Source: Stegostoma tigrinum (Eukaryota). Taken from it: a stretch of 64,000 nucleotides of DNA. Positions 24,001 through 44,600 of the stretch are shown piece after piece; positions within the stretch are counted from its first letter, which is position 1, and every line of letters starts with the position of its first letter. The stretch lies in the NCBI RefSeq assembly GCF_030684315.1, contig NC_081387.1:6242497-6306496 (forward strand). The letters run 5' to 3'. Made by a program: the position numbers and the translations under genes. The notes under the pieces are model-generated. The model was not told the origin of the DNA and made no database searches. It saw only the letters and a list, made by a program, of their open reading frames with translations.

Positions 24001-27000
24001 ATTGGAGTCATAACTTACAGAAAGGAAGATAGCTGTTCTTTAAATCATGGGTCATAGAATGCCTACAGTGTGGAAACATTCACCCATTGCCCTCCCAAGA
24101 ACATCCCGCCCAGACCCATCCCCTTACCTTGGCCCTGTAACCCACATTTTCCATGGCGAACACCCAACCTGCACATGTTTGGACTATGGGAGGAAACTGG
24201 AGCTTCCAAAGGAAACCCACGCAGGCATAATGGCAATGCACAAACTCCAGTCAGTCACCCGAGGGTGGAATCAAACATGGGTCCCTAGTACTGAGGCAGC
24301 AGTGCCAACCACTGAGCTACTGCATTTCTCTAACCACTGTGCCATTCTTGTTGGAGGTTAGTGATCTCAAGCTCCAGAACATCTCTGCAGGAGTTCCTCA
24401 GGGTAATATTCAAGGTCCAAACATCTTCAGCTGCTTCATCAATGACCTTCGCTCCATCACAAGGTCAGAAGTGGGAATGTACGCTGATGATTGTGCAATG
24501 TTCAGCACCATTCGAGACTCCTCTGATGAGAAACCAATACATGTTAAAATGTAACAAGATCTGACCTATATCCAGGCTTGAGCTGATGATTGGCAAGTAA
24601 CATTTGTACCACACAAATGCCAGGTACTGACCATCTCCAGTAAGAGACCATATAGCCACCATCCCTTGATACTCAATGCTGTTATCATCACTGAATCTCC
24701 CATTCTTAATAACCTGGGAAGTACCATTGACTAGGAACTCAACTGGACTCACCATATAAATACAGTGGCTCCAATAGCAGATCAGAGGTAAAGCACACTG
24801 CAGCAAGTAACTCACCTCCTGAATTCCCGAAGCATTTCCATCATCTAACATAGTCAAGTCAGGAGTAGAATATAGAACATAGAACAATACAGCGCAGAAC
24901 AGGCCTTTCGGCCCTCGATGTTGCGCCAACCTGTGAACTAATCTAAGCCCATCCCCCTACACTATCCCATCATCATCCATCTGCTTATCCAAGGACTGTT
25001 TAAATGCCCCTAATGTGGCTGAGTTAACTACGTTGGCAGGCAGGGCGTTCCACGCCCTTACCACTCTCTGAGTAAATAACCTGCCTCTGACATTTGTCTT
25101 CAATCTATCACCCCTCAATTTGTAGCTATGCCCCCTCGTACAAGCTGACATCAACATCCTCGGAAAAAGACTCTCACAGTCCACCCTAACTAATCCTCTG
25201 ATCTTCTTGTATGTCTCTATTAAATCCCCTCTTAGCCTTCTTCTCTCCAATGAGAACAGATCCAAGTCCCTCAGCCTTTTTTCATAAGACCTTTGCTCCA
25301 GACCAGGCAACATCCTGGTAAATCTCCTCTGCACCTTTTCCAATGCTTCCAAATCCTTCCTGTAATGGGGCGACCAGAACTGCACGCAATATTCCAAGTG
25401 AGGCCACACTATGATGGTATACTCTCCCTAGATGGGCGCAGCTTCAGCAACACAGAAAAAAATCTTGACACCATCAGGACTAGGCAGCCCACGTGATCGG
25501 CAACACATCCAGAAGCATCCACCTCCTTCACCATTGACACTCAGTACACACTGCTACAATCACAAGATGCACCACAGAAATTCACCAAAGATCCTTAGAC
25601 AGCACCTTCCAAACTGCCAACCACTGCTACCCTCGAGGACAAGGGCAGCAGATACAAGGAAACAGCCACATCTGCAAGCTCTCCTCCAAGCTACTCACCA
25701 TCCTGACTTGGAAATATATCACTGTTTCTTCACTGCCACTGGATCAAAGTCCTATCGTTCCCTCTCCAAGGACATTTTGCATCTAGCTAGAACACATACG
25801 CTGCAGTGACTCAATTACACAGCTCACCACCACTTTCCCAGGGCAACTAGGCACATGCAGTAAATGCAGCTCAGCCTGTGGTGCACAAACACAAGGCAAT
25901 TTATAAAAAAACAAAAGGGAAAGAGTAAAGGAAAATCAAATGACATTGGCAGGAAAGGTCTAGCAGATAGCAGAATGGTTCAACACTCCTGTTGCACAGT
26001 TCCCATCCAACAGGAAAATCACCTGTCATTCACTGCCTTCACTTCAAATGAATAAACTCACTTGATGTTTGGTTTTCTTTCTGGAGCCATTCATCAGCCT
26101 GTCCCTTAATGATTCCATGGAAGCCAGATTCGGTGATAGTGCACTGTTCCCAGTAAGTCTTGTCAAATGCTTCCGCCATCCATTTTTGCCTTGGAACGGT
26201 TATTTTCATATTGCTGTCAAAATAGTATATCTCACAGCCATCCAAAATCCCCAGGACACTATACTCTGGTAAATCAGGTCTCCCATGATTTAAGGTGTAC
26301 TGATACAGCAGGGAATGAGACTCTAGAGGAGAAAAAGAAGAAATCCTCACTATTGGCAAATCAAACACTGAAAATATCACAAAACTAAAACAAAACAACA
26401 AATTTCAGAGTCTGGAGTTCTGAAACTAAAACAGAAATTGCTGGCGAAACTCAGTGGGTCTGACGGCATCTGTGGAGTGAAAACAAACTAAAAGGTTTTA
26501 AGTCCAGTGACCCTTCCTCACAGCTGATTGCAGCTTACTAAATGACTTGAAATGATAAGCAAATCATAACACATTACACAGAAGATAAACGTCCGCACTC
26601 CTGTGTTCAATCAATATAGGCACAAAGAGCCTGAGAAATAAACTGTATACATTAAGAAGAAATTTTCGAGAAATATATTCCAAAAATCCTATTTTATGAT
26701 AATGTGCGCTGTTGAAAGCAGCTAACGAAATTTGATCGAGTGACAACAAAGGAAAGGCAGTATCGGTTAGACGGTGAACAGCACAGACAGGAACAGGCAG
26801 GCAAGGGCCTTTCCGAGTATCTGCTTCCTTGGCCTTTGCAAACAGGACAGCCAAGTTTGTGGGCTTCAAAGGTACTATCAGAGGAGGCTTATAGAACTTT
26901 AGAGTCATACAGCACAGAAACAGTTCTTTTGGTCAAACCAGTTGATGCCAAACATAATCCCAAACTGAGCTCGTCCTACCTGCCTGTGCCTGGCACATCC

Positions 27001-30000
27001 ACCACTTCCTCAAGAAGTTCATTCCACATGCAAACCACCCTCTTTGTAAAAACATTTTGCCCCTTGTGTCTTTTTTTAAAATCTCTCTCCTCTCACCTTA
27101 AAAATATACCCTCAGTCTTGAAATCCCCCATCATACAGAAAAGACACCTACTATTAACTTATCAATACCCCTCATGATTTTTTAACATCTATAATGTCAC
27201 CTCTCAACTTTCTACACTCCCGGGAAAAAAGCCTGTCTTTATAAGTGATACCTTCCCTTCCCAACCACATCCTGATGAATCTCTTTTGAACCCTTTCCAG
27301 CCTAATGATATCTGTCCTATTGCAGTACTGGACACAGTACCACAGAAGGGGCCTCACCAATGTCCTGTGCAACATCAACATGATTTACCAACTCCAATAC
27401 TCAAAGGACTCATAAATGAAGTCAAGCATGCTAAACACCTTTCCAGCCACCTTGTCGATATGTGACACAAACTTCAAAGCATTACATCCCTGAACCTCTA
27501 TGTCCCTCAAGTCTGCAACAATACCCAAGAGTCTACCATTAATTGTATAGGTCCTGACTCTGTTTGTTCCATAAAAATGCAACATCTTGCATTCATCCAA
27601 ATAGAACTCCATCTGCCATTTTTCAGCTCATTGAACCATTTAATCAGGATTCCTTTATAATCTGAGAGAACCTTCTTCACTACAGACTATGTCACCGAAT
27701 TTGGTGCCGTCTGCGAACTCACGAACCATGCCTTCAATATTGTCATAAAAATTATTCATAGCAATGACAAACAAACAGGATCCAGAATCGACGCCTGTGG
27801 AAAAACACTGGTGACAGGCTCCAGTCTGAAAAGCAACCCTCTACCACCACGATAACAAAGTGTGGAGCTGGATGAACACAGCAGGCCAAGCAGCATCTTA
27901 GGAGCACAAAAGCTGACGTTGGGAGTCTCGACCATTCATCACAAAAGGGGGATGGGGAGAGGGTTCTGAAATAAATAGGGTGAGGGGGGAGGTGGATCAA
28001 AGATGGATAGAGGAGAAGATAGGTGGAGAGGAGACAGACAAGTTAAAGAGGCGGGGATGAAGCCAGTGGAGGTGAGTGTAGGTGGGGAGGTAGGGAAGGG
28101 ATAGGTCAGTCCGGGGAGGGTGGACAGGTCAAGGGGACGAGATGAGGTCAGTAGGTAGGAAATGGAGGTGCGGCTTGAGGTGGGTGGAGGGGATAGGTGA
28201 GAGGAAGGACAGGTTAGGGAAGCGGGAATGAGCTGGGCTGGTTTTGGGATGCAGTAGGGGGGGAGGGGAGATTTTGAAGCTTGTGAAGTCCATGTTGATA
28301 CCATTGGGCTGCAGGGTTCCCAAGCGGAATATGAGTTGCTGTTCCTGCAACCTTCATTTAGCATCAGTGTGGCACTGCAGGAGGCCCAGGATGGACATGT
28401 CGACTAAGAAAATGATGCGGGATTTGAAATGACTTGCGACTGAGATGTGCAGTTGTTTATTGTGAGCCGAGCACAGGTGTTCTGCAAAGCGGTCCCCAAT
28501 CCTCCACTTGGTTTCCCCAATGTAGAGGAGGCCACAACGGGGACAGCGGATGCAGTATACCACATTGGCAGATGTGCAGGTGAACATCTGCTTGATGTGG
28601 AAAGTCTTCTTCGAGCCTGTGATGTGGGTGAGGGAGGAGGTGTGGGGACGAGTGTGACACTTCCTGCGGTTGCAGGGGAAAGTGCCAGGTGTGGTGTGGT
28701 TGGAGGGGAGTGTGGAGTGGACAAGGGAGGCCCAGAGAGAGTGGTCTCTCCGGAAGGCAGATAAGAGTGGGGATGGAAAAATGTCTTTAGTGGTGGGGTC
28801 GGATTATAGGTGGCGGAAGTGTCGGAGGATGATGTGTTGGATCCGGAGCTTGGTGGGGTGGTACGTGAAGATGAGGGGGATTCTCTTTTGGCAGTTATTA
28901 CGGGGACAGGGTGTGAGGGATGAGTTGCGGGAAATGTGGGAGTCACGGTCGAGGGCGTTCTTGACCACTGCCGGGGGGGTGTTGCAGTCCTTGAAGAAGG
29001 AGGACATCTGAGATGTTCGAGAGAGGAATGCCTCATCCTAGGAGCAGATGCGGCAGGGGTGAAGGAATTAGGAATAGGAGGAGGTGTATTCTAGGTAGCT
29101 GTGGGAGTCGGTGGGCTTTAAATGGATATCAGTTTCTAGCTGATTGCCTGAGATGGAGACAGAGAGGTCCAGGAAGGTGAGGAATGTGTTGGAGATGGTC
29201 CAGGTGAACTTGAGGTTGGGGTGGAAGGTGTTGGTGAAGTGGATGAACTGTTTGAGTTCCTCTTGGGAGAACGAGGCGGTAACGGAGAAAGAGGCGGGGT
29301 TTGGGGCCAGTGTAGGTGCAGAAGAGGGACTGTTCCACATAACCTACAAAGAGGCAGGAATAGCTTGGGCCCATGCGGATACCCATGGCCACACCCTTTG
29401 TCTGTAGGAAGTAGGAAGAATCGAAAGAGAAGTTATTGAGGGTGAAGACAAGTTCGGCTAGGCGTTTGAGGGTGTCGGTGGTGGGGGACTGGTCAAGCCT
29501 GCAGGACAGGAAGAAGCGGAGGGCCTTTAGGGGAATGCAGGTGTATAGGGACTGGATGTCCATGGTGAAAATGAGGTGTTGGGGGCCGGGGAATTGGAAT
29601 TGGAAGTTCTGGAGGAGGTGGAGGGCATGGGTGTGTCACGGACGTAGGTGGGGAGTTCCTGGACCAAGGGGGAGGAAATGGAGTCCAGATAGGTAGAGCT
29701 GAGTTCGGCGGGGCAGGAGTAGGTGGAGACAATGGGTCAACCAGTGCAGGAGGGTTGTGGATTTTGCGAAGGAGATAGGAGCAGACTGTGGAGGGTTGGG
29801 GAACAATGAGGTTGGAGGCTGTGGGTGGGAGGTCACCTGAGGTGGTGAGGTTGTGGATGGTTTGGGAGATGATGGTTTGGTGCTCAGCGATGGGGTCCTG
29901 ATCCAGGGAGCGGTAGGAGGAGGTGTCGGAGAGTTGGCATTTGGCCTCGGTGATGTAGAGGTCAGTGCGCCATACTACAACTGCACCTCTCTTGTTTGCG

Positions 30001-33000
30001 GGCCTCTACCACCACTCGCTATCTTGATGAGTTGCTGTCATGAGATTTGTAAATGTTCACGCCACTGCCACTCTACATTTATGATTGAAGGAATTTGTGT
30101 TTAAAGGTGGTGGATGTAGTGCCAATCAAGTGAGAAACTGTATCTTGGATAATGTCCAGCTTCTACTGGAGCTAGACTCATCCAGGCAAATGCAGAGCAT
30201 TCCACCACTCTCTTCTTGTATGCCTTGTAGATGTTAGAAAGGCATTTGTAGACGGGCAGTGTGCTTCTACCACAGAATGCCAAGCATCTAACCTGTTGTT
30301 ATGGCCATCGTATCTGCAGTTAATTCAGGTGCATTCCTGGTTCATAGTATTGTTTGGGCTATTGATAATTGGAGGTTCAACAATGGCGATGCCATTGAAT
30401 GTCAAAGGTGAGGTAGGTAGCTTCTACCTTGTTGGATACGGCCAATTACTTGCTACCTCTGACACAAATTTGACATCAATGATTTAGGCATGTGTATGGT
30501 GAGGACAAAATAGATCAGAGTTTTGATGCCTGTCATTGACACTCAAGGAAGTGATTAGAAGTAAATGTAAATGTGGGAACTGCATCCTGATTATTTTCTA
30601 CTTGGTTCAGTTGATGAATAATCCTACCCAGAGATTTCCATTACAACACAAATCACTCAAATGAATAACCAAATATCTCAATACAGTCATTTCCTACATA
30701 ATCTGGAAAACTAATGGGTTACAGTCTCTTCAAAACAAGAGAGAAATATTGAACTCAAGCATTCTCTGTGCACAAAAACTTTTCACCACTTAACTTACCA
30801 ATGATCAGTAATGGAAATTCTGATGTATTATTTACCTTGGTGCCCTAGACTGAGGGGTAGGGAAAAGTAGTCTTGAGAGAATAAGCTCACAAATTTCAGT
30901 CACCTCGATCAACTCTCACCAGAAATGAAACTCAGTGCCTTTCTTCCCAGTATAATTCAATGCCTCATTCACAACTGAGAAGGTAAAAGTGTGCTTCAAC
31001 TATATTAACAATGAATATGCCACAAATGGAATACTATGTGCAGTTCTAGTCATCATACAATCAAAGATGTGATTGCACCAGAGAGGGTGCAGGTGTCATT
31101 CAACAACATGCAACCTGGAATGAAAGTTCTCAGTTATGAGGAGAGATGGGAAAAGTTTGTTTTCTGGGAGCAGAGGGGAATCAGGGTGGAGGGGTGGGGG
31201 GTGGGGGTGATGGATGAAGCTGATTAAGGTATTAAAAAATTATGAGAGGCAGAATCAGATTAGATCAGGAGAATTTTTCATCATGGTAGACATATCTAAG
31301 ACCAGACGGCATCGGTTTAAGGTGAGCAGCAAGTGATTTAAAGGAGACCCGATTGAAAGATGTTTCACCCAGAGGATGATAAATAAGGAGTATGATGCCA
31401 GTGAGGGTGGTGGAGGCAATGACTCTCACACCATTAAGAAGCATCTGGCTGAGCACTTAAAATTTCAGGGCACAGTAGGCGAAAGACAAAGTGCAGACAA
31501 ATGGGATCAATGTAGATTGGTTTCCCTTCCATTTTCCCTCCATTATAAGGTCAGAAATGGGGATGTTTGCTGATCATTGCAAATGTTCAGCATTGTTTGC
31601 TATTCCTCAGAGACTGAAACAGTCCATTTCCAAATGCAGCAAGACCTGGACACGAGTCAGGCTTGCAATGCTCAGTGGTCAGTGATATTGACACCACACA
31701 CATGTGTCATCTACTGACCAACTGAAATAGTTTCATTCTCACCTACCTCCCTTTGATATTCAATGGTGTTATCATTACTGAAACCCTCCGGATCAACTTC
31801 CTGGGGGGACAGTCATCCTCAACCTGAAGTGGATGAACCACATGTACAATGTGGCTGTAAGAGCAGGCCAGATGTTGGGAATTCTGCAGTAACTCACCAC
31901 AAACAACCTGCTTAATTCTTCCCATATCCAAATATAATTGCTATTCCTTCATAATACTGGAAGCCCCTGACATATGGCACTGTGGGTGTATCTAAACACG
32001 AAAGGACTTTATTTGTTCAGGAAGGCAGCTCATCACCACCTTCTCAAGGGCAACTGTTCCCTTTCCAAGTGTCAATAACAAGAGGGTAAAATTTTAATGC
32101 GAGAGGCAGGAGGTTCACAGGGGATTTGAAGAAAGGCCTTTTACACCCAGAGGGGGCTGGAATATACTGCCTGGGAGGGGCAGCTGAAGTGGGAAACTTC
32201 ACAACCTTTAAAAAAATCGATGTATGAGTCCTTACGGAGCACATTCACCGTTATGGGCTCAACACTCGGGAGTGGGACTAATGTAGATTTAGTGTATTTT
32301 TGGTAGGACAGGCTTGATGGATTAAAGTGCCTCTTGTGTACTATATGATTCTATGATTCTACCTCAGGATGAGCAATAAATGCAAGCCCAGCCAGAAACA
32401 CTCAGTACAATTTGGCCTTTCGCTTATATTTAATTGCAACTTTCATAAATATGGTCCGTCACAAGTCTGGGGTCAATCAATAATCTGGAACAGTACCCTG
32501 GGAAACACCCAGTCTATCACTAATCTCACAACAGAGAACATCTGGAGAGAGATACTGGGAAACCCCTCCTGACCAGGGAACATCTGGAGTGATTTTTGAT
32601 TTTCTTCAGTAATGTCTCATGTATAGAGTTGCAGTGAAGAATTTTATTTAACTAAAGTCTGATCTGCGATTCATCAGCACAACTGGGAAAGATGTGCAGT
32701 GAGTGAATCCAGATTAAAATGAGGAGAGACAGGAATATTTGGGAGGATGAAGTGAGAGACCAGGAGGGACAGTCACTGTGTGAACAGTCTCTCTGTCAAA
32801 CAGGGGGGATGGACAATGCAGAGCTGGACCCTCGCTGTCCTTCGCTGAGCTTTTTAATCACCCCTTTATACATGACCAGTAGGATGCTGCTGTCTGAGAT
32901 AATCGGACCTATTCAGCCAGGAAGGCATCACAGCTGAGCCTGGAGTGGATTAACCATGGAGTATCCTTCTCCTCCCCACCGTCTTTACAAAATTTTGACC

Positions 33001-33371
33001 AGAAGTGGTGAAGATGTTTAGCTCTTCCCAATTGTTGTGAAAATTAAAATTGTCCTTTAGGATTATTTCCCATTTGCTCTGAGCTTCCCTGATCTCACGG
33101 TTTCTATATCCTGCTGTCAGGAGACCTGGATACAAATCCCATCAGAGTCTCCCAGACTGTGCTGTCTACAATGTGTAAAATATCAGGCTGGCTGTATTAC
33201 AGGCGGCTGGTCAAACAGCCCCGATTTCAAACTCTCACCAAGAGATTCACATTCACCCCAGAGACAGAGAGAGAGAGAGAGAGAGGGAGAGAGAAGGGAA
33301 TGCTAAATTCTGTACTTACCGGGAGAGACCGAGGAAAAACACAGGGAGATGGAGAAAAGGGTCATCAACAT
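1..33371 (-). CDS. MHC class I heavy chain-like gene A (nonclassical-like), multi-exon, 3' end runs off the window
   Basis: Joined exons 33371-33320, 26322-26062, 9285-9010, 8804-8538 (and probably 60-1) give an open frame: signal peptide, alpha1 ([10 protein letters not shown]...PRQKWM...YWEQ...NQTS), alpha2 ([12 protein letters not shown]...FAFDG...KEKWD...LENDC), alpha3 C1-set Ig (C...[15 protein letters not shown]...PNEDGTFQ...YACHIEH). All introns are GT-AG, phase 1. Confidence 0.9.
280..660 (+). mobile_element. CR1 LINE 3' end fragment
   Basis: gaccttatagaggtttataaaatcatgagg ... gggcctgtttccatgctgtatgact. Confidence 0.8.
2253..2567 (-). mobile_element. Shark tRNA-derived SINE (HE1-like)
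   Basis: The - strand head gtggctcagtaggtagcactgctgcctcac...ggttcaattc has A/B boxes; body gagtttgcacattctccc; CR1-like 3' tail. Confidence 0.85.
4330..5530 (-). mobile_element. Degenerate CR1 LINE fragment
   Basis: Reverse-strand CR1 RT/3'-end-like text (gtgaagaaatgtttcctc, ggagaccaaaattgc). Confidence 0.6.
5545..7690 (+). mobile_element. CR1 LINE fragment, degenerate
   Basis: SCLTNLI...[35 protein letters not shown]; typical CR1 3' end. Confidence 0.9.
8538..8804 (-). CDS. MHC-I gene A alpha3 (Ig C1-set) exon
   Basis: 267 nt; acceptor tctttctttcatacag, donor G|gtaagc; PPEVSI...[21 protein letters not shown]...[10 protein letters not shown]...[10 protein letters not shown]...W. Confidence 0.94.
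9010..9285 (-). CDS. MHC-I gene A alpha2 exon
   Basis: 276 nt; acceptor atgtttag, donor A|gtaagt; [12 protein letters not shown]...[19 protein letters not shown]...KEKWD...[14 protein letters not shown], with both canonical cysteines. Confidence 0.93.
10718..15973 (-). mobile_element. Tx1-type (L1 clade) non-LTR retrotransposon, copy 1, full length but mutated
   Basis: ORF1 with CCHC knuckles (frameshifted); ORF2 with APE endonuclease (GDFN, SDH), RT (YMDN instead of YMDD) and C-terminal Cys-His motif; AATAAA and poly(A) at the 10718 end; highly similar to copy 2. Confidence 0.93.
10996..14383 (-). pseudogene. Tx1 copy 1 ORF2, disrupted
   Basis: Split into ORFs 14097..14417 and 10996..14022; small deletion in the endonuclease domain; catalytic YMDD changed to YMDN. 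Confidence 0.85.
16273..19692 (-). CDS. Tx1 ORF2p: AP endonuclease + reverse transcriptase + C-terminal zinc-binding motif (intact)
   Basis: [11 protein letters not shown]...LQE...GGDFN...SRIDF...SDH; [46 protein letters not shown]; CPRGGC...[10 protein letters not shown]. Confidence 0.93.
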   Translation of the reverse strand: MGVRIASINVRSVKSTARCVSTLAYLTTIKADLLFLQECGIPHLGRYGKWSGAWTCGPSIWSGGNDCRSSGLAILLRGRNFTISQVQEVVGGRLLVADITYRNAPLRLINVYAPVIRSERLDVLQRLPPLLATSRPVILGGDFNCIIDADGRSGVGTAGGGIQLDVTSRFLMGTVKDAKLLDVFSTPADGAQQRYTWSRPDGSIRSRIDFLFVSRTFSVRSTGVEPVFFSDHCLLLADCHLEDDQPAGKGTWKLNTTLLTPENVEELKREYTGWRTVKPLFESPGDWWETVKENIKRFFVLKGVQKVRERRGKLSRVQKRVQNLLLLQLMGVDVTEDLREVRGQQASLFAVEASRIIFRSRVRSVEQDETCSRFFFQKVHKESSVLSRLKEDDGSVTSSRPDVLRISRSFSAGLYDTKPTDSTASESFLSSITEVLDDGTREWLDRPISLDELARALKSLQRNRTPGSDGLPVELYSALWGLVGQDLLEVYDSALRAGEMCKSMRKGIITLIYKRKGEREEIKNWRPISLLNVDYKILAKVIANRVRSVLESVIHPDQTCAVPGRKIAESLALIRDMIAYVQDRRVDTCLVSLDQEKAFDRVSHAYMRDVLSKLGFGEGIRNWIRLLYANIVSAVSINGWESDSFPVRSGVRQGCPLSPALFVCCVEPFAASIRKDVSLRGVTIPGSGGLQVKTSLYMDDVAVFCTDRRSVSRLLDICGQFELASGAKVNRGKSEVMFFGNWDDRSFIPFTVRTDYLKVLGVWFGGAGACTKTWEERISKFKQKLGRWTLRSLSIAGKNLVVRCEGLSVLLYVAQAWPITWTCAAAVTRAIFHFIWGSRMDRVRRDTMYKDLGNGGKGVPNATLALTATFVCGCIKLCVDPQYANTKCHYLLRFYLSPVLRRMGLASLPRNAPSSWTVPYHLSFVEKFLKGNTFDHKAVRQWSARSILRTLREKERVDPVVWFPMQTAKVVWQNASSPELSNKHKDIAWLAVRGALPVRSFMHARNLCTTARCPRGGCGGDETVDHLLVECAYAQEVWRGMQWYLSRFVPSSSVTRDSMLYGLFPGTHTETNINCAWRTINAVKDALWSARNLLVCQLKELTPTECCRLAHSKVQGYVLRDALKLGAAAAKARWGKTTV
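19667..21129 (-). CDS. Tx1 ORF1p (zinc-knuckle nucleic-acid-binding protein), one frameshift near 20350
   Basis: [12 protein letters not shown]...[42 protein letters not shown]; the C-terminal part continues in ORF 19667..20416. Confidence 0.8.
21595..21634 (+). ncRNA. Minimal type I hammerhead-ribozyme-like motif in the Penelope terminal repeat
   Basis: UCA-CUGAUGA-c-GUUACC-uagaau-GGUGAC-GAAA-CGUC-UGA: conserved core, 6-bp helix II, palindromic ACGU helix III, 3-bp helix I. Penelope pseudo-LTRs are known to carry minimal hammerheads. Activity is untested. Confidence 0.6.
24045..24345 (-). mobile_element. Shark tRNA-derived SINE (HE1-like) inserted in a LINE
   Basis: Same SINE motifs as 2253-2567. 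Confidence 0.8.
24868..25410 (-). mobile_element. CR1 LINE 3' end (young)
   Basis: [20 protein letters not shown]...[12 protein letters not shown]; (agaacat)n tail. Confidence 0.9.
26062..26322 (-). CDS. MHC-I gene A alpha1 exon
   Basis: 261 nt; acceptor tttttctcctctag, donor A|gtgagt; [28 protein letters not shown] motifs (within ORF 26039..26401). Confidence 0.92.
26890..27850 (-). mobile_element. CR1 LINE 3' fragment
   Basis: [14 protein letters not shown]..., DECKMLHF. Confidence 0.8.
27850..29995 (-). mobile_element. Penelope-like element, degenerate (RT + GIY-YIG)
   Basis: ORF fragments [11 protein letters not shown]...[16 protein letters not shown]; [26 protein letters not shown]; 3' terminal repeat near 27850-27960. 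Confidence 0.9.
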
Positions 33372-33400
33372 TCTGGCACAGTCCACTGTCTGTATTCCAA
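32677..33400 (-). repeat. Inverted duplicated segment (leader exon + start of following intron), partner of 40892-41630
   Basis: Colinear reverse-complement similarity over ~720 bp, including a shared (GA)n/(TC)n microsatellite. Confidence 0.9.
33320..33371 (-). CDS. MHC-I gene A signal peptide exon ([17 protein letters not shown])
   Basis: ATG at 33371, 52 nt, hydrophobic, ends G|gtaagt; homologous to the gene B leader; correct orientation upstream of the alpha1 exon. Confidence 0.75.
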
Positions 33401-33779
33401 TCAAGCCCTGGGAATTAAATATTCCTGGGAAGGGAGAAATAATCATAGTTTGGGGGCTGGGGAAAATAAAACAAAACAGAATTGCAAGATGTCGCTTTGA
33501 CCGTTGGACTGAAGTTGGATCCTTTCCTAATGACTCGGAGTGGGAGTGACTGGTTGGTTTGTCTCAGAAAGAAAACTCCGCAGTTAAAAACGAGGAAGGG
33601 CTGACCATCACCAGTCCCCGTGAGATTGAACCGCCTGAAGGTTCTGGTTGAGTCTGAGATACAAAAACTGATGGGAATGTTTCCCTCGGGGGCAGCGAAC
33701 ACACACCGACTGGGATATTTTTTACCAGGTGGTGGTGGGGGTGAAGCTGGCAGCATCAGGCCCCTGAGGCCCGGGATCT

Positions 33780-34040
33780 GCCCGGTTTTCTTTTCACCTT
33801 TTCTCGGTCTTTTCTATTTTCCTGATTTTCCTGTGGAGAGCTCGGGGAGCTTCCTGCTCTCTGTGGTTTCGGTTTATTTTCTGTGTTTCCGGGTGGCAAC
33901 ACTGCACATCACTTCTCACTGAGTTTGTAACAAAAGCCACATGACAAACAAATACTGTCTAATTGGCTAAAATTCACATTCTCTTCAGTTTGCGGCGCGT
34001 TATGTTTTCGCTTTTGGCTTCCACTCAGCGGCGGCACGGA
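33780..34040 (-). promoter_or_regulatory. Probable promoter region of gene A (IRF-E-like motifs, CCAAT box, local CpG cluster)
   Basis: GGTTTCGGTTT (~33865), GTTTTCGCTTTT (~34003), ATTGG (~33962, CCAAT on the - strand), CpG-rich tgcggcgcgt/gcggcggcacgg. Confidence 0.4.
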
Positions 34041-34711
34041 GGGAGGTGGCTCAGATGAAATGTGGGACTGATTGACACAGCAGCCACTCCTGCTCGATGC
34101 CCTCAGGGAGATGGTGCGGACTGTCCCTCAGCTTTCACACCACGGGAGAGAAATATCATTCTCTGTCACTTCTGAACACAACCAAGGATATATTTCCCTC
34201 CACTCCCCTCCCTGCTTTCCGGGGGGACCGCTCTCTCTCCACTCCGCACCAGCACCACCGCCTCTCCCTGCAACCGCAGGAAGTGCTACTTCCCGAACGA
34301 GGGTCTCAGTTTCTTGTGGCTCTCGGCTTTGGTCCCCTCCCGGTGTGTTCACCGTTGACAGTCAATGTTTGATTAAGGACACCATCAAAATGTTCTTTTC
34401 TGGTTGCTTAGGATCTGTCCTTCCGATAGAGGATCAGTTACCTCATCCCCTTAAATCTAACAGGCATTGCCAGCTGCAGCCTGCTCCTCTCCCCGAGAGA
34501 TATCGTTCACGTGGCACTGTTGTGTTAAACATGCCCTCCAATCTGAGTAATACCATGCCACTTCTCTCCCACTGATGAAAAAGATCTGTTTGGAAGTGGC
34601 GATTGCAGTCCTGTATGAGGATCTCATCTGGAAAAGCGGAAACAATGTGAAAGTTCGCAATGACCATGAGAAAGTTCGCTTTGCCAAAAAATGAGGGAAG
34701 TTTTAACCAGA

Positions 34712-35000
34712 CAGGTTTTAACAGTGAGTGGGAGGGAGAGACGGAGTTAGGAGGGGAATGAAATGAGTCTGACAGATTTTAACAGAGTGGGAGGGAGAGA
34801 CGGGGTCAAGAGGGGAATGAAATGATTCTGACAGATTTTAACAGAGTGGGAGGGAGAGACGGGGTCAAGGGGGAATGAAATGATTCTGACAGATTTTAAC
34901 AGAGTGGGAGGGAGAGACGGGGTCAAGAGGGGAATGAAATGATTCTGACAGGTTTTAACAGTGAGTGGGAGGGAGAGACGGGGTCAAGAGGGGAATGAAG
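34712..35000. repeat. Minisatellite, ~5 copies of a 57-60 bp unit
   Basis: acagattttaacagagtgggagggagagacggggtcaagaggggaatgaaatgattctg repeated. Confidence 0.93.
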
Positions 35001-35649
35001 ACGGTAAAAATATATCGATGATAGAAGTTAAGATGTCACTTCTGGAATCGGGAAGAATTTGGGAATGGCAAAATCAGGAGCTGAGAAAACAGAAGAAGAA
35101 TATGAGAAATTGAATAAAATATAAAATTAGTGTGAAATATTCTCGATCATTCACTTGACCCAGTATTCTGCATTAATTAACCAGGCTGTCACAGCTCAGT
35201 GCAGAGGGAGAAGAGGATGAGGGATTGGAAGGAGAGAAGAAGAGACTGGTGTTTTAAGGAACTGGAGACTGAGTGGGGAGTGTTACATCTTCCAGTCCCT
35301 TCTATGTCATTCCCAGCGCTCTGTCCCCTCAGCCACTTACTGCAAGCTGTTGTGTAGGTCTCACTTGGTGAATGTGTCGAAGCAAAATAAATGTCCATGA
35401 GAATGTGGAATAACTCATTGTCAGAGTGAGAACATAACAAATGTGAAGGAATGGCCACTGAGTCAGAAATCCTCATTCCCACACTTTCCTCCATCTTTAC
35501 ACTGCATGGAGATTCTGAAGATTTCTTCCATTTCATCGACAGTCGGTCAGTGAGGATGTGAGTGTATGTAATGCATTTAATCAGCAATATGGGAATGGAT
35601 CAGACAAAGAAAAAGCAGGTAGGGAACAAGACATATTGATACTCAGAGA

Positions 35650-37510
35650 TCATAATAACAGCCGATGCTGGAGTCAGAGAGAACACAATGTCAAGCTGGA
35701 GGAACACGGCAGGCCAGGCAACATCAAAGGAGCAGTAAAGTTGATGTTTCAGGTCAGAAACCTTCTTCAGAAAACTCTGTGTCCCGACCCAAAACATCAA
35801 TTTCCCTGCTCCTCTGATGCTGTGTTCCTCTAACTCCACATTGCATTCTCTCTGACGTCAGCATCAGCAGTTATTACTATTTCTGAGTGTGCTGTAATCC
35901 CAATGCGAAACCCATTTTCCGAAGACATGTTGATATATGTGTATCTGTGTGTGAAAAATTATCGGTGGGTGAAAACCAGGCCTCCAGGAAATCTCGTGCT
36001 TGTATTTGCCTTGCTTGTCCTCGTCCTATAACTTTGTCCCAGTCAAATTGACGTCCCATGTCAGAGGGCATTGAAATGAGGGCGAATTGGTCGTGACGTT
36101 TTGTTGTGAGGTGGTGTTCATGTATCCTGGTGATGGGTTTCCTGCCCATCTGTCCTGTGTAGTGTTTCTAGTGGACTGCATGAAATCAGAGTGAGACCGA
36201 ACAACAGCCCTTCAGCAGAGGTTACATAGCACTGACAATGTCCCCTAGGAAGGAGATGAAACGTTTGCAAAAAAAAAGTCAGCTCAACAAACCAATCAGT
36301 AACTCCAACTGCAACCTGAGCTAATGGTTTTCAATAAATCATTAAACACGAGGCTAGATTGAGTGAAGTGCAGGTGTTGCTTCACCTGGAAGGTGTGTCT
36401 GGGACTTTGGAGGAGGTAAATACAGAGTGTTCTGTGGTTTTTGCCATGGGAGCGTGAGAAGGAATGGCAGAGGAGTGGACCAGAGTGTCCCAAAGGGATT
36501 GGTCCTTGCAGAACGCTGACAGGGAGGGGAGGGGAATATGTGTCTGGCTGTAGCATCCACTGGAGGTGATGGAAATGGCAGCTAATAGTCCTTTGGGTTT
36601 GGAGGCTGGTAGGGTGCTAGGTAAGAAACAGGGGGACTGTATCGCTGTTGTGATAGGGCGAGGGCAGAAGTGCAGGAGATGGGTCAAACATGGTATTGGA
36701 GAATCGGCGTTTGATGCAAAAGTTGGACATATCTGAAGAGCCCCTGTGGTCGGTGGCATCATCAGGACAGATGTCATGGAGATGGGGAAACTGGCAGATT
36801 GGGAAGGAGTCCCGACAGGAAACAAGGGTGAAGGGATACAGCTGAAGTAACTGTGGGAGTCAATGTGTTGGTGGCCAGTCTATTCCCAGAAATGGAAACA
36901 GAGATGTCAAGGAAAACAAGGGAGGAGTCAGGGATGGGCCATGTGAAAGTGAGGGCAGGGAGGTAAGTGGAAGCAAAATTGATAAAAACTTCCAATTCCA
37001 GAAGAGCGAGGGAAGCAGCACTGTTGATGTCATGGAGAAAGAGTTGTGAGGAGGGACACAAGGAGGACTGGATCAAGAAATGGTCCACAAACCCCACAAA
37101 AAGACAGGATTAACTGGGGCTCATGTGAATACTCATGGCCACAGCTTTGACCTGAAGAAAGTGTGAAGAGTTAAAGGAGAAGTTGTTCGAAGTGAGGATG
37201 AGCCAGGCAGAGGAGACTGGTATTGGATGGGCAAGGTTCAGGCTTTTTTTCCAGGAAGAAGCGGAGGACCCTGAGACCATCCTGATGAAGGAGATGGATG
37301 TGTGAAAAGATTGCACATTCATGGTGAAGAGGAGGTGACTGGAGCCTGCAAACTGGAAATTTTAAAACTGACATGAAGCATACAAGAAAGGGGTTAGACT
37401 TGGGGGCAAAAAATCGAAACAATGGACCAGTGCAGGTGGTACTGTTTGTGGATTTTGAAAAGAAGGTCGAAGCGGACTACACTGGGTTGGAGGATTATGA
37501 ACTGGGACTA
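35650..37510 (-). mobile_element. Old Penelope-like fragments (two families)
   Basis: GRKPITRIHEH...FDWDKV...ARDFLEAWFS (GIY-YIG C-terminal region); NNFSFNSSHFLQVKAVAM (RT); terminal-repeat remnants at ~35660-35870 and ~36190-36330. Confidence 0.75.
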
Positions 37511-37511
37511 C

Positions 37512-37990
37512 TCTGGATGCTTTGGAGAGGGTTCAGAGGAGGTTTACCAGGATGCTGCCTGGACTGGAGGGCTTATCTTATGAAGAGAGGTTGACTGAGC
37601 TCGGTCTCTTTTCATTGGAGAAAAGGAGGAGGAGAGGGGACCTAATTGAGGTATACAAGATAATGAGAGGCATAGATAGAGTTGATAGCCATAGACTATT
37701 TCCCAGGGCAGAAATGGCTAGCACGAGGGGTCATAGTTTTAAGCTGGTTGGAGGAAAGTATAGAGGGGATGTCAGAGGCGGGTTCTTTACACAGAGAGTT
37801 GTGAGAGCATGGAATGCGTTGCCAGCAGCAGTTGTGGAAGCAAGGTCATTGGGGTCATTTAAGAGACTGCTGGACATGCATATGGTCACAGAAATTTGAG
37901 GGTGCATACATGAGGATCAATGGTCGGCACAACATCGTGGGCTGCAGGGCCTGTTCTGTGCTGTACTGTTCTATGTTCTATGTTCTATGT
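37512..37990 (+). mobile_element. CR1 LINE 3' end (young), inserted in a Penelope fragment
   Basis: [23 protein letters not shown]...; (tgttcta)n tail. Confidence 0.92.
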
Positions 37991-38599
37991 ACTCTTCTTG
38001 GAGAAGGAAACATTGAGAGAAAATTTGATAGGAGGTGCTGTGTTCGTTAGACAGTTGAACATACAATGAGAAAGTGGTCCCATGGGTGCAATGAACAAAA
38101 CCTATCAGTGACTGGCTTAAGGGTAGTGGCAAAAGAACCAGGGGTCACAGAAAAAGAATACAAGATTCAGGAACAGGAGTAGGCCATTCGGCCTCTCGAG
38201 GCTAGCTTTGCCATTTGATAAGCTCATCAGATAATTACCTCACATCTATCTCCCCATCTACCCTCCCTAAACCTTCTCATTTTATCATCTGTTTGAAGAA
38301 CCGGAAGAATGGGAACAGTAGGAGGCTATTCTGTTACTGAATCCTGATTGAGTTGCTTAATTACAGTGGGAATTATTAGGATTTGGGACACAGGGCTTAA
38401 GAGTGTAATACAGGTAGATTTGATTGCACCTTCCAAAAGGGCTTAGGATAATTACCTGAAAAGGAAAGATTTGCTGGGTTCTGTTGAAGAAGCTAGAGAC
38501 ATAGAGCCAGCAGAGTTACATTCACAGAGGGCTAGAATGGAGGCTCTGGGCCAAATGGCCTCCTTCCAGGTTACAACCATTGTGTGATTCTGTGATTCC

Positions 38600-40375
38600 A
38601 GGTACAAAAATGTGGATCGCTCACTCTGGGGAAAGACCCTTCAAGAACAATATGTGAAGCAAGACTTTCAGCCAGTCACTGAACCCTTTGGTGCACCAGC
38701 ACATTCACACGGGGGTGAAGCTGTAATGGTGAAGTGGGGAACACAACTGTCACCCAGTCTTCGAGAAGGCAATTGCCCCCTTCTCATCCCTCATGATACA
38801 TCAGTGCACCCCCACCAGGGAGAGAACTTTACACTGAAGCCTTCACTCAGGCCTCCTTGCTACTGGCTTGTCAGAGCACACACAGTTGAGGATGAGGGAC
38901 AGTGTGGGATTTAGCAGCAGAGCCATATCATTGTCTCCAAGCTTCCAGAAGAGAACAGCGCACCTTCCCGCCAATATCCAATGTGTTCTGACTGTGAGGG
39001 GCTTTGGGGAGATGCCTCAGCTGCTTATCCTCCCTCCAAAATGAAAGTATTGGTAAGAGGTTATGCCTGGTGGCTGTGACATAGCTGCATTGTGATGCAG
39101 TGCCTAGAATGCCAACAAGGACAGGAGCTGCTGCTGGTGGTGCTGCCATATTCCTGGGAATGGCTGGGTAAACCCTCGACTTGGCTACAGTCAACTATGC
39201 CAGTACTTTCATGGGCTCGATATTGCTGGTCATTGGGGATGCCCATTCAAAGAGGTTGGGCACACATGGACCTCTTTTGGCAAACTCAGGGATGATGAAT
39301 GAAAAGTTGCGAGCATCATTTGCGATACACGGACTCCCAGAAGTATTTTTCGTGGACATTTACTAGCAGGGAATTTGAGTATTTCCTAAAGTCAAATGGC
39401 ATTTGGCACATAAGGACAACTCTGTACCATCCATCATCCAGTCTAGTGGTCTGGCAGAAAGTACAGTCCAAAACATATAGCATCAATTGATTCCACACTC
39501 TTCCAATTCATTGTTGACTCTTCATGAAACTGCAGGAGTATCTCCAGCCAAGTTGCTTCTGGGGAGAGGGCTCTGCACCAGATTAATCCTGATATTCCTG
39601 GACATCGGTTAAGGTGAAATGACAGCAGAAATACCATGTTTCCTCTAAGCAAGAGAGACAAGTCACTTCCAGGGGTCGAAGTTTGGCGCCGAACCCATGG
39701 AAATGGCCCTGCATTGACAAAAGCAGAGTTTGACACAAGGACAGGTTCCATGACATATGAAGTCTGGGTAGGCGAGGTGGTCCTGAACAAAAATGTGGAT
39801 CACTTGAAAGCTATTACCTTGCAAACAGGGCAGGAGCAAAACATATCTGCTCCTCAGAAAGGCCAGGAGGCCTGCCAGAAACAGTGGGTTCTCCCCATAC
39901 ACCTCGTGTGGAGGAAACTTCAGAGTCTGAGATGGATGTAGCCTCAAGACCATTACCACTGGAAGTAGAAGGTAAAACTCTCCACAGATGCTCTGGATGC
40001 AAAAGGTGGGTTACGGTGGTGTACGTGCTGCCAGTGTCAGAATCCAGCTCAGAGGAACCAGGCTTGGGGCAAAAGCATAGCAGGCAGTCCTGAGAAAGAC
40101 CAGGCCTACATCCCTGCGCTTGGAGGAGTGGGGGAGAATGGTGGGGAGGTGGGTTGGTGTGACATTGTAATTGGAACCAGGTGGACCCATGGACTATGAG
40201 ATCCTTGATTGGGGTTGTTAACCTGGGCTAATCAGGGAGTCCTGGCTGACAGATATACACAGGGGATTCAGGGTCTCCTCACCTCAGGGACTGACTCCAA
40301 GCTGGCTGGCTGTGTACTGAGCTAATGCACACAATGGGTGACTTGGTGAAAAATACCATCCCCCATTGCAATTGT
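38600..40375 (+). mobile_element. Gypsy LTR retrotransposon remnant (integrase + 3' LTR ~40166-40375)
   Basis: Frameshifted integrase motifs (CLECQQ...WEW..KP, LRASFAIHGLPE, FTSREFEYFLKSNGIWHIRTTLYHP); purine tract followed by an LTR starting TGTAA. Confidence 0.75.
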
Positions 40376-40776
40376 TTCCCACATTAACAGGAGAGTGACA
40401 GGACGGACTCACACTAATAGGAGAGTGTGAAGAGGGAGACACACTGACAGGAAACTGTGGGCAGGGGTGTGACATGAACAGGAGTATTAGGGTGTAATGT
40501 GGAGCTGTATTCACATAGAGTTGTTCCTGACTTAATGAGGTGTCGGTGAAATAACTAAACCCTCTCAATCAACGTCTGTGCAGTCGACACACCCAATGTT
40601 CCTTGCTCGTTTTATCGAATGTTCGAAGTCGGTTAGTGAACTCCTGAGCTTGTTTCTCCTGATAACTGGCAAGCGACTGTTTTTCATTTGATTGGCTCTT
40701 TTTGTCAGGTGAAGCCAATCACTGCAGTCAGGCATGATCAAAGCTCAGTGAGGCAAAGTCCTAATAAACATCTTTA

Positions 40777-40791
40777 TTTCCTTTCAGTTTC
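40777..40791 (+). promoter_or_regulatory. ISRE/IRF-E-like element upstream of the gene B start codon
   Basis: TTTCCTTTCAGTTTC contains TTTC-NN-TTTC about 130 bp 5' of the ATG; CCAAT/ATTGG boxes near 40691 and 40715; class I genes are known IRF targets. Confidence 0.45.
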
Positions 40792-40891
40792 TACTCATAT
40801 ACCTTTCGTTTAAGTCGATGTTAAATCAATTCTCCAGAGGCATGTTTTTGCCTTTTCCAGTTTAGAAACATCCCTCACAGTACACCAGTCC

Positions 40892-41000
40892 CTGAATAGA
40901 GACAGTGCATCCCCAGAATGTTGATGACCCTTTTCTCCATTTGCCTGTGTTTTTCCTGGGTCTCTCCTGGTAAGTACAGAATTCAGCTTTCCCTTCCCTC

Positions 41001-41039
<39 letters not shown>

Positions 41040-41630
41040 GTCTCTGGGGTGAATGTGAATCTCTTGGTGAGAGTTTGAAATGGGGGCTATTTGACCAGCC
41101 GCCTGTTATACAGCCAGCCTGATATTTTACACATTGAAAGCAGCACAGCCTGGGAGACTCTGATGGGATTTGTGCCCAGGTCTCCTGACAGCAGGATTCA
41201 GAAACCCACAGATCAGAGAAGTTCACAGCAAGTGGGAAATGGTTCAAATGGACAATTTTAATTTTCACATCGATTGGGAGAAACCAAACAGCTTCACCTG
41301 TCCTGGTCTAAAGTCAATAAATACTGTGGGGAGAAGAATGATATTCCATGTTTAAAACACCCCAGGCTCAACTCTGATCCCCTCATGATTGAATAGCCCG
41401 AGTTATCTCAGACACCAGCATCCTACTGGCTGTGTGTAAAGGGGCGATGAAAAAGCTCAGTGAAGGACAGGGGGGACCCTGGTCTGGATTGTCCATCCCC
41501 CCTGTTTGACAGAGAGACTGTTCACACAGTGACTGTCCCCCATGGTCTCACACTTCATCCTCCCAAATATTCCTGTTTCTTTTCTTTTAAATTTGGATTC
41601 ACTCATTCCACATTTTTCCTGGTTATGAGC
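40892..41630 (+). repeat. Inverted duplicated segment, partner of 32677-33400
   Basis: For example ggaatatttgggaggatgaagtg at ~32732 matches the reverse complement of ~41551-41573. Confidence 0.9.
40918..40969 (+). CDS. MHC-I gene B signal peptide exon ([17 protein letters not shown])
   Basis: ATG at 40918, 52 nt, hydrophobic, donor G|gtaagt. Confidence 0.85.
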
Positions 41631-44600
41631 GGAAAGCACAAACCAGCCCTCAGGTTATCCTGAATTCCTCACTCCTGGTAATCCCTGGTTAGCAGTGTCC
41701 ATTTAATATTTCTCTTCAATTTATTCCAGGTTTCTGTTCCAGGTTAGTGATTGCATCGGTGTGACCCGGCCACTGTTTCAGGTCAGCGATCTTCTGTTTC
41801 CTCCTCCAGTCCCTGGATTGTGGCCCAGCCTCTCCCCTGTGTCCACACTGATTCCATTGAGTGTCTCTGTGACTCTGATTCCGTGTTTACTCCCTGTTCT
41901 GAGAGGCTGCAGTATCTAATTCTGACCCAGTTCAATCTGATTCTGTTCATAATATCTGACAGGAATCTGACAGTGTGATGAAGTGGTGGATTATTGCAGA
42001 TTGGCACCATATGGGAGGGGCCTCATGAGGATGAGCTGGAAGTGTGTGTAAATGTTCATTAGCCTGTACCTAATATTTGATTTACAGAGACAACATGTTT
42101 AAAGTTAGTCTCTCACATTAGTGACGCCCTTGGGATTTGTGATGTTGCCACGGTCGGTGAAGCCCAAATACATGAATATGATGTTTTTCATGCTGGGCTT
42201 CAGTTACCAGCTACTTTCAATGTTTGCTTTACAGAGACTAATGTGCACACTGGGATTTACACAGCGGTTTCTGGAATTCAAGACTTGCCTGAGGTGATGC
42301 ATATGGCAATGGTCAATGGAATTAAAATAAGTTCTGGTGACAGTAAAACCGGTCAGTGCATCCCGAGGCAGCAGTTCATGGTAGAATCTTTCAATGCGAA
42401 ATTCTGGGATTCTGTCACAAGCATGGTGCACCAATGTGCAAACACAGCAAAGGAAATTTTGAGTACAATAATGAAGAGGACAAGCCAGACATCTGGTAAG
42501 GTGTCAGAGATAATGGGAACTGCAGATGCTGGAGAAACCGAGATAACAAAGTGTGGAGCTGGATGAACACAGCAGGCCAACCAGCATCTCAGGAGCACAA
42601 AAGCTGACGTTTTGGGCCCAGATGCTTCATCAGAAATGGGGGCGAGGGAGAGCGTTCTGAAATAAATAGGGAGAGAGGGGGAGGCAGATAGAGGATGGAT
42701 AGAGGAGAAGATAGGTGGAGAGGAGATAGACAGGTTAAAGAGCAGGGGATGGAGCCTGGAGAGGTGAGTGCAGGTGGGGAGGTAGGGAGGGGATAGGGCA
42801 AGGGGGGTGAGATGAGATTAATAGGAAGGAAATGAGGGTGCGGCTTGAGGTGGGAGAAGGGGACAGGTGAGAGGAGGAACAGGTTAGGGAGGGGGGAACA
42901 AGCTAGGCTGGTCTTGGGATGCAGTAGGGGGAGGGGAGATTTTGAAACTTGTGAAATCCACCTTGATACCATTGGGCTGCAGGGTTCCCAAGCGGAATAT
43001 GAGTTGCTGTTTCTGCAACCTTTGGGTGGCATCATTGTGGCACTGCAGGAGGCAAGGATGGACATGTAAGCGGTTCCCAAGCCTCCGCTTGGTTTCCCCA
43101 ATGTAGAAGAGGCCACACCGTGTACAGCGGATGCAGTATACCACATTGGCAGATGTGCAGGTGAACCTCTGCTTAATATGGAAAGTCTTCTTGGGGCCTG
43201 GGATGGGGGTGAAGGGGGAGGTGTGGGGGCAGGTGTAGCACTTCCTGTGGTTGCAGGGGAAGGTGTCGGGTGTGGTGGGGTTGGCGGACAAGGGAGTCCC
43301 AGAGAGAATGGTCCCTCCGGAAGGCAGGTAAGGGTAGGGATGGAAAAGTGTCTTTGGTGGTGGGGTCCGATTGCAGATGGCGGAAGTGTCAGAGGATGAT
43401 GTGTTGGATCCGGAGGTTTGTAGGGTGGTATGTGAGGACAAGGGGTACACTCTTTTGGTTGTTATTGCGGGGACGGGGTGTGAGGGATGAATTGCGGGAA
43501 ATGCAAGGGACATGGACAAGGGCATTCTCGACCACTGTGGGGGGGCGGGGGGAGGTTGCAGTCCTTGAAAAGCAAGAGCATCTGAGATGTACGGGAGAGG
43601 AATGCCTCATCCTGGGAGCAGATGCGGCGGAGGCGAAGTAATTAGGAAGAGGGAATGGCATTTTTGCAGGAAGGTGGGTGGGAGGACGTGTATTCTAGGT
43701 AGTTGTGGGAGTCAGTGGGCTTTAAATGGAGGTCAGAGATAATGGGAACTGCAGATGCTGGAGAATCCAAGATAATAAAATGTGGGGCTGGATGAACACA
43801 GCAGGCCAAGCAGCATCTCAGGAGCACAAAAGCTGACGTTTCGGGCCTAGACCCTTCATCAGGGAGGGGTATGGGGAGATGATTCTGAAATAAATAGGGA
43901 GAGAGGGGGAGGCGGACTGAAGATGGATAGAGGAGAAGATAGGTCGAAAGGAGAGTATGGGTGGGAAGGTAGGGAGGAGATAGGTCAGTCTAGGGAAGAC
44001 GGACAGGTCAAGGTGGCGGGATGAGGTGGTAGGTAGGAAATGGAGGTGCGGCTTGAGGTGGGAGGAAGGGATGGGTGAGAGGAAGAACAGGTTAGGCAGG
44101 TTGGGACGAGCTGGACTGGTTTTGGGATGCAGTGTGGGGAGGGGAGATTTTGAAGCTGGTGAAATCCACATTGATGCCATTGGGCCGCAGTGCTCCAAGC
44201 GGAATATGAGTTGCTGTTCCTGCAACCTACGGGTGGCATCATTATGGCACTGCAGGTGGCCCAGGATGGACATGTCTTCTGAGGAATAGGAGGGGTAGTT
44301 GAAATGGCTCACGACTGGGAGATGCAGCTGTTTACTGTGAACTGAGCATCGGTGTTCTGGAAAGCGGTCCCCAAGCCTCCGCTTGGTTTCCCAAATGTAG
44401 AGGAAGCCACACCGTGTACAATGGATGCAGTATACCACATTGGCGGATGTGCAGGTGAACATCTGCTTGATATGGAAAGTCTTCTTGGGGCCTGGGATGG
44501 GGGTGAAGGGGGAGGTGTGGGGGCAGGTGTAGCACTTCCTGTGGTTGCAGGGGAAGGTGTCGGGTGTGGTGGGGTTGGCGGACAAGGGAGTCCCAGAGAG

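What the first reader, a model, noticed from the sequence alone, without database searches (positions are those of the whole stretch)
32677..41630. Two very divergent MHC class I genes share a recently duplicated leader-exon module
Seen: the leader exons are 48/52 nt identical (15/17 aa) and ~650 bp of the following intron, including a microsatellite, align in inverted orientation. Yet the alpha1 domains match at only 24/87 aa by my ungapped count, and alpha2/alpha3 are also clearly divergent. Signal peptides and introns normally diverge faster than alpha3. Inference: exon shuffling or gene conversion moved a leader/regulatory module from one class I lineage to another, making one gene a chimera and possibly co-regulating the pair.
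Basis: partly seen in the sequence, partly recalled or inferred. Interest (0 to 1): 0.75.

Follow-up and report, generated by a model that had tools for sequence, protein, structure and literature searches.

The report
Shark MHC gene with borrowed leader
In this zebra shark sequence, a young extra copy of a reportedly CD1-like immune gene (UGA) has lost its own first exon and sits in frame behind the first exon of a very distant MHC class I family, so it is likely a working hybrid gene, although no RNA evidence for the joined transcript was found.

Summary
Observation confirmed: leaders 48/52 nt and 15/17 aa, 84% over 737 nt inverted, ectodomains 26-39% identical. The window matches zebra shark proteins. 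Gene A's body belongs to the UGA lineage; gene B belongs to the multicopy UEA-type family. All 20 other UGA proteins examined (17 species), including a zebra shark paralog 7/308 aa from gene A, have a different leader, and that leader is absent from the window. But the module was not recently copied between A and B. It is the UEA family's standard leader (54 of 64 hits), B's whale shark ortholog has it, A and B share no upstream sequence, and another UEA gene (XP_059495517-21) matches A's first 42 codons exactly: the likely donor. The same leader also heads two shark UDA proteins, so it has crossed lineages before. RefSeq models the splice, but I found no RNA or junction-spanning read. Verdict: real, apparently unremarked cross-lineage leader capture by a known kind of mechanism.

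The parts
33320..33371 (-). Gene A leader exon, UEA-type (17 codons + 1 nt, phase 1, GT donor)
   Evidence: equals N-terminus of P0076
33372..33446 (-). In-frame 25-codon upstream extension; with the leader, 42/42 aa identical to UEA gene P0081
32476..33319 (-). UEA-derived 5' part of gene A intron 1, homologous to gene B intron 1
30834..32475 (.). Inferred junction zone between UEA-derived and UGA-derived DNA; mostly repeats
   Evidence: tables 2 and 8; exact breakpoint not determined
30006..30833 (-). Intron 1 stretch likely shared with the second UGA copy; a 1027-nt contig covers it and appears to continue near 27841 without the intervening LINE
   Evidence: tables 3 and 8 (the join is inferred from equal depth and length)
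27847..29995 (.). LINE-like insertion in gene A intron 1, related to copies at 42542-48508
26062..26322 (-). Gene A alpha1 exon (UGA)
9010..9285 (-). Gene A alpha2 exon (UGA)
8538..8804 (-). Gene A alpha3 exon
2667..2771 (-). Gene A transmembrane exon; the last coding exon was not found in the window
33447..34709 (-). Upstream (putative promoter) region of gene A; no homology to gene B's upstream; contigs here are deeper than their neighbours
34710..35643 (-). Orphan 3' relic of another UEA-type gene: cytoplasmic exon 35373-35341 with acceptor AC instead of AG, flanking intron and 59-bp minisatellite; homologous to 60421-61211
40918..40969 (+). Gene B leader exon
40970..42234 (+). Gene B intron 1 (homology to A to about 41790)
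42235..42495 (+). Gene B alpha1 exon (UEA-type)
52437..52712 (+). Gene B alpha2 exon (no cysteines)
52831..53109 (+). Gene B alpha3 exon
60186..60293 (+). Gene B transmembrane exon

Best explanation
Gene A is a zebra-shark-specific duplicate of the non-classical class I gene UGA that lacks the UGA leader and lies in frame behind a UEA-type leader exon, likely joined by a rearrangement within intron 1 and likely spliced into a hybrid transcript. Shown: the two halves have different parents, the native leader is absent from the window, the five exons give an open frame with GT-AG sites. Inferred: UGA duplicated after the split from whale shark; the 5' end (upstream region, leader, about 850 nt of intron 1) came from the UEA gene XP_059495517-21 or a very close copy, not from gene B; the join lies in the repeat-rich 30834-32475 zone. 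Because the leader would be cleaved, the mature protein would be almost plain UGA, and the predicted effect is on where and when it is expressed. The A-B likeness is ordinary UEA paralogy, likely refreshed by gene conversion among leader and alpha3 exons.
For: alpha1 and alpha2 hit PDB 9CH4 at 1e-51 and 1.6e-51; the 9CH4 stretches shown there read the same as nurse shark 'UGA' in the PMC10751288 supplement (compared by eye). Tree of 75 ectodomains: gene A sister to zebra shark P0001 (100/98), whale shark outside; gene B sister to whale shark P0013 (100/100) in a separate clade. One clade for all carriers of this leader is rejected, p-AU 4e-38 on 25 of the 75 rows. 0 of 20 other UGA rows have the leader; best identity 3/17. 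Five native leaders score at most 40 anywhere in the window against about 120 for self; the control leader finds both exons. Spliced window exons equal the first 320 aa of P0076; first 42 codons equal P0081. A and P0001 differ at 7/308 sites, A keeping the whale shark residue at 4 and P0001 at 2. In 3 of 3 runs of organism B the three listed contigs on the UGA body and on 33301-34676 are 1.4-2.1 times deeper than five listed contigs at 34970-42526 (weak, depth is not copy number). Among 46 UEA rows leaders are more alike within than between species for pairs with distant alpha1 (0.92 vs 0.86, permutation p 0.0005).
Against: No read or contig shown spans 30834-32475, and none joins 33320 to 26322 (tables were cut and repeats swamped them). 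No independent transcript-derived protein with this leader on a UGA body appeared among the 7 members of the cluster or 18 hits. RefSeq models are predictions and I could not see their support. The donor locus and native UGA locus were seen only as proteins. The 5' part looks identical to its donor while the body is about 2% from its paralog, which needs two steps or continued conversion. A dead UEA 3' relic lies just upstream, so the area holds debris.
Confidence: 0.62

Rival explanations
1. The DNA arrangement is real but silent: a leaderless partial UGA duplicate lies beside an orphan UEA leader, and the splice is only a gene-model prediction.
For: No RNA join seen. An orphan UEA cytoplasmic exon with a broken acceptor lies 2 kb upstream. 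The duplicate is young enough to be intact without selection.
Against: Leader, phase and all splice sites fit, the frame is open, and A's terminal branch is not longer than the paralog's (0.008 vs 0.016). RefSeq lists two isoforms with this leader.
Confidence: 0.18
2. Assembly mis-join or false duplication: the 5' end of a UEA locus was stitched to a UGA allele through repeats.
For: Both halves have near-identical counterparts elsewhere and the junction zone is repetitive. No bridging contig is listed.
Against: Runs X2 and X4 (two samples) show the paralog's letters as differences in alpha1, with extra depth from a second path at some sites; a contig apparently lacking the intron-1 LINE exists; both halves show raised depth. 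These support two copies, not the join itself.
Confidence: 0.1
3. One shared exon: the leader at 33371-33320 is the first exon of the UEA gene XP_059495517-21 whose body lies left of the window, with the UGA copy nested in its first intron and reached by alternative splicing; or a native UGA leader lies beyond position 64000.
For: It explains the 42/42 identity without duplication. The body of P0081 is not in the window, so its place is unknown to me.
Against: The two sets of models are numbered as separate isoform series. The contig on 33301-34676 is as deep as those on the two-copy UGA body.
Confidence: 0.07
4. One reading: the module moved recently between gene A and gene B and co-regulates them.
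For: Adjacent, inverted, 84% alike; A, B and P0081 share M3/T4 that a fourth zebra shark gene (P0029) lacks, which suggests some recent conversion in exon 1.
Against: A better match exists (17/17 to P0081 against 15/17 to B); B's whale shark ortholog has the leader; no shared upstream sequence.
Confidence: 0.03

Closest known systems
Elasmobranch MHC-Ib lineage UGA (nurse shark sequence in PMC10751288 Supplemental File 10; PDB 9CH4; called CD1-like and single or low copy in PMC12562908, there as personal communication)
   Same: alpha1-alpha3 and transmembrane exon of gene A are orthologous; 27/308 aa from whale shark.
   Different: Gene A has a foreign leader; zebra shark has two copies. Lipid binding not tested here.
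Shark multicopy MHC-Ib family (labelled 'Gcirratum_UCA_NODE_26056' in that supplement; the name UEA for it rests on the paper's text about a multicopy cluster with UDA and on my recall of Almeida 2021)
   Same: Gene B is an ordinary member; the leader is the family's standard one.
   Different: In gene A only the 5' module is from this family.
KIR fusion genes formed by unequal crossing-over at intronic repeats (PMC7516082, passages seen)
   Same: Hybrid of two cluster members, parents retained, repeats at the inferred join.
   Different: KIR parents are close paralogs and binding or signalling domains are shuffled; here parents are about 33% identical in the ectodomain and only the leader/upstream part is swapped. 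That review says class I fusion genes are not known to its authors in hominoids.
Intron-2 recombination of alpha1 and alpha2 exons in teleost classical class I (PMC6523485, passages seen)
   Same: Class I exons recombined through a long intron.
   Different: Mostly allelic, changes the groove; here intron 1, between lineages, groove unchanged.
Concerted evolution of class I genes by gene conversion (PMC1397804, passages seen)
   Same: Leader and alpha3 track species while alpha1/alpha2 keep old sub-lineages.
   Different: Here a near-identical leader also spans UEA and shark UDA.

Membership tests
UGA lineage (gene A) | alpha1/alpha2 close to nurse shark UGA | tested here: met
   against 9CH4; for the label (by eye)
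UGA lineage (gene A) | Ectodomain nests among shark and ray orthologs | tested here: met
   clade of 21 rows, 100/99
UGA lineage (gene A) | Native UGA-type leader | tested here: not met
   so gene A is filed as a UGA-bodied chimera, not a plain UGA
UGA lineage (gene A) | Lipid binding like CD1 | not testable with these tools
   reported for the lineage in PMC12562908 only
UEA-type multicopy family (gene B) | Multicopy, sharks only | tested here: met
   63 of 64 hits named as sharks, 1 unnamed, no ray
UEA-type multicopy family (gene B) | Similarity to the labelled nurse shark reference | tested here: inconclusive
   alpha2/alpha3 resemble the entry labelled UCA_NODE_26056 by eye; no entry is labelled UEA; the name is recalled
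UEA-type multicopy family (gene B) | Hydrophobic groove lacking classical anchor residues (recalled) | not tested
   not examined
Chimeric (fusion) gene | 5' and 3' parts from different parent genes | tested here: met
Chimeric (fusion) gene | Intact frame and splice sites across the join | tested here: met
Chimeric (fusion) gene | Junction confirmed in independent DNA | tested here: inconclusive
   both halves present, no bridging contig listed
Chimeric (fusion) gene | Spliced hybrid transcript | tested here: inconclusive
   RefSeq models only; no RNA holder listed
Leader-peptide ligand system like HLA-E/Qa-1 | Conserved class I leader presented by a class Ib molecule to an NK receptor | not testable with these tools
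   only the conservation was measured

The most novel reading that the evidence does not exclude
The 17-residue leader with its intron-1 block is a selected, portable cassette of the shark class Ib cluster. It is as conserved as alpha3 across sharks (0.87 between species against 0.52 for the UGA leader), is identical on UEA and on two UDA proteins whose ectodomains are 33% alike, and has now captured a UGA copy. It could be a shared regulatory module or a leader-peptide self signal like the one HLA-E/Qa-1 presents, repeatedly recruiting ancient lineages into one expression or surveillance programme.
Probability: 0.15. Interest if true: 0.8.

Novelty: new variant of a known kind. Interest (0 to 1): 0.52.

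Why it matters
UGA is reported as one of two candidate shark forerunners of CD1. A natural second copy with the same groove but another family's 5' end would let one compare expression of two near-identical proteins under different control. The shared UEA/UDA leader shows 5' ends moving between class I lineages far too divergent in the groove exons to recombine there, which affects phylogenies and primers based on leaders, and poses a testable question: why is this signal peptide so conserved?

Tried and rejected
No genome is held for the window, so donor and native loci could not be read as DNA. RNA search: no RNA holder listed among 5 runs; not evidence either way. Laying 4 runs on 18 kb: joints table dominated by repeats, no 33320-26322 joint among those shown. 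Run X1 (organism A) has one contig on alpha1 at about 92%, uninformative on the chimera. Metagenome scan with a 24-nt leader pattern gave one contig, L001, a chance 25-nt match in bacterial-looking DNA. Promoter motif scan: single ISRE-like and kB-like hits, not shared in position between A and B; inconclusive. UDA plus UEA as sister lineages: not rejected when the holocephalan-like UDA is included (p 0.49), rejected without it (p 0.016), so descent versus capture for UDA stays open. The holocephalan-like UDA P0156 has a 17-aa leader with 7 identities but a score of 25, no better than unrelated proteins. Literature: searches listed no paper describing this chimera or the shared leader; Almeida 2020 (UDA) and 2021 (UEA) are not held and may discuss leaders. 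No earlier scan findings.

Full report
Observation. The inverted homology is real: 32678-33397 against 41627-40894, 84% over 737 columns, score 1055 against at most 45.5 in 30 shuffles, fading out near 32476/41790. The leader exons match at 48/52 nt and 15/17 aa. The ectodomain exons match at 23/86, 24/91 and 36 of 92 columns. Homology starts only about 26 nt before the ATG; the upstream regions are unrelated (23 against a shuffled mean of 24).

Identity of the genes. Window exons joined by coordinates equal the first 320 residues of zebra shark XP_059495377.1 (P0076, gene A) and the first 325 of XP_059495577.1 (P0085, gene B). Gene A alpha1 and alpha2 hit PDB 9CH4 at about 1e-51, and the 9CH4 stretches printed there read the same as nurse shark 'UGA' in Supplemental File 10 of PMC10751288 (by eye). 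A review (PMC12562908, passages) calls UGA single or low copy and CD1-like, citing a personal communication. Gene B falls in a large family: 63 of 64 hits are named shark proteins and none is a ray. The supplement labels a similar nurse shark sequence UCA; I call the family UEA from the paper's text (passages) and from recall.

Whose leader is it? 54 of the 64 gene B relatives carry the same 17-residue leader type (53 scored 61 or more, P0039 has a shortened form; the other 10 models start otherwise). Among 248 proteins scanned, nothing outside this family, gene A and two UDA-type proteins scored above 25. UGA has its own leader: 20 of 20 other UGA rows from 17 shark and ray species, best identity to A's leader 3/17 (P0003, P0246 and isoforms were left out of that set; P0003 has a repetitive start and P0246 a native-type one). 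That includes a second zebra shark UGA, XP_059495352.1 (P0001), only 7/308 residues from gene A. Five native leaders find nothing above 40 in the window, against about 120 for self, while a control leader finds both exons. In a 75-row ectodomain tree gene A is sister to P0001 (100/98) with whale shark outside, and is the only one of 21 UGA rows with this leader; gene B is sister to whale shark P0013, which has the leader. A single clade for all leader carriers is rejected (p-AU 4e-38, 25 of 75 rows). Gene A is therefore a chimera, younger than the zebra/whale shark split.

Donor. Not gene B. A third zebra shark gene, XP_059495517-21 (P0045, P0081-84), from another UEA sub-clade, matches A at 17/17 in the leader and 42/42 including an upstream in-frame stretch that B lacks; its body is not in the window. 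Just upstream of A's 5' region lies an orphan UEA 3' end (35643-34710, 476/632 aligned columns to gene B's 3' region, cytoplasmic exon with a broken acceptor), so a patch of UEA-cluster DNA of at least 3 kb abuts the UGA copy. In three runs of organism B the listed contigs on 33301-34676 and on the UGA body are 1.4-2.1 times deeper than five listed contigs at 34970-42526, and the paralog's alpha1 letters appear as differences. The tool warns that depth is not copy number, so this is weak support for two copies of each half. A 1027-nt contig covers 30006-30833 and appears to continue near 27841, that is, a copy without the intron-1 LINE. UGA-derived DNA thus likely reaches 30833 and UEA-derived DNA 32476; the gap is mostly repeats and is the inferred join.

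Why A and B still look alike. Among 46 UEA rows, between-species identity is 0.87 for the leader, 0.50 alpha1, 0.70 alpha2, 0.86 alpha3; within species 0.93, 0.53, 0.73, 0.93. For pairs with distant alpha1 the leader is more alike within species (63 pairs, 0.92) than between (657 pairs, 0.86), permutation p 0.0005, pairs not independent. Variants track species across sub-clades, for example one substitution in 6 of 6 basking shark rows. This fits concerted evolution of leader and alpha3, as argued for mammalian class I (PMC1397804, passages). By contrast the UGA leader behaves normally: 0.52 against 0.70-0.78 for its domains (55 pairs).

A wider pattern. The same leader, letter for letter, heads Mustelus XP_078073773.1 (P0128) and an unnamed protein from a 1195-nt contig (P0135, likely a spliced transcript given its length); both resemble the supplement's UDA entries by eye and group apart from UEA. 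UDA and UEA ectodomains are 33% alike. Classical-type and UBA-type shark proteins have other leaders. Whether UDA and UEA share it by descent or capture is unresolved. Only two UDA proteins were seen.

How it likely works. Shown: open frame, phase-1 join, GT-AG at all five exons, no excess change on A's branch. Inferred: transcription from the UEA-derived upstream region, splicing of 33320 to 26322, cleavage of the leader, and a nearly normal UGA protein expressed in the donor's pattern. Not shown: any RNA. No RNA holder was listed, no junction appears, and the support behind the RefSeq models could not be seen. Rivals: silent debris (0.18), mis-assembly (0.10), one shared exon (0.07).

Comparison and verdict. 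The mechanism resembles KIR fusion genes (PMC7516082, passages) and teleost class I exon recombination (PMC6523485, passages), but joins lineages only a third alike and swaps only the 5' end. Eight searches listed no description of it; the two primary lineage papers and their supplements were not available and could mention the shared leader. New variant of a known kind; interest 0.52.

Noticed in passing
window 10653-21347 (-), in gene A intron 2: Two tandem copies (91% alike) of a 5.3-kb LINE; the second has a stop-free 1159-codon frame with endonuclease, reverse transcriptase and zf-RVT domains, so it may be a young, intact element.
   Followed up: partly
window 43068-47619, in gene B intron 2: A 1294-bp LINE fragment repeated in tandem about three and a half times at 94-96% identity; could be real or an assembly feature.
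   Followed up: no
window 61203-64000 and 34710-34999: A 61-bp minisatellite of more than 2.8 kb in gene B's 3' intron, related (about 73%) to the 59-bp array upstream of gene A; a possible recombination point.
   Followed up: partly
window 60699-60731 (+): A normal-looking cytoplasmic exon of gene B with AG and GT sites that RefSeq model P0085 does not use; the model's C-terminus may be wrong.
   Followed up: partly
window 42088-42234 (+): A second possible acceptor with a similar sequence context 147 nt upstream of gene B alpha1, in the same open frame.
   Followed up: no
window 52437-52712 (+): Gene B alpha2 has no cysteines, so the usual alpha2 disulfide is absent.
   Followed up: no
P0128, P0135: Shark UDA-type proteins carry exactly the UEA consensus leader.
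   Followed up: partly
P0106 (Leucoraja XP_055486430.1): A divergent class I protein that is sister to the whole UGA clade (100/99, long branch), perhaps a further lineage.
   Followed up: no
P0005, P0004, P0003 (sawshark); P0006, P0245, P0248 (sawfish): UGA appears in three copies in each of these species, against its description as single or low copy.
   Followed up: no
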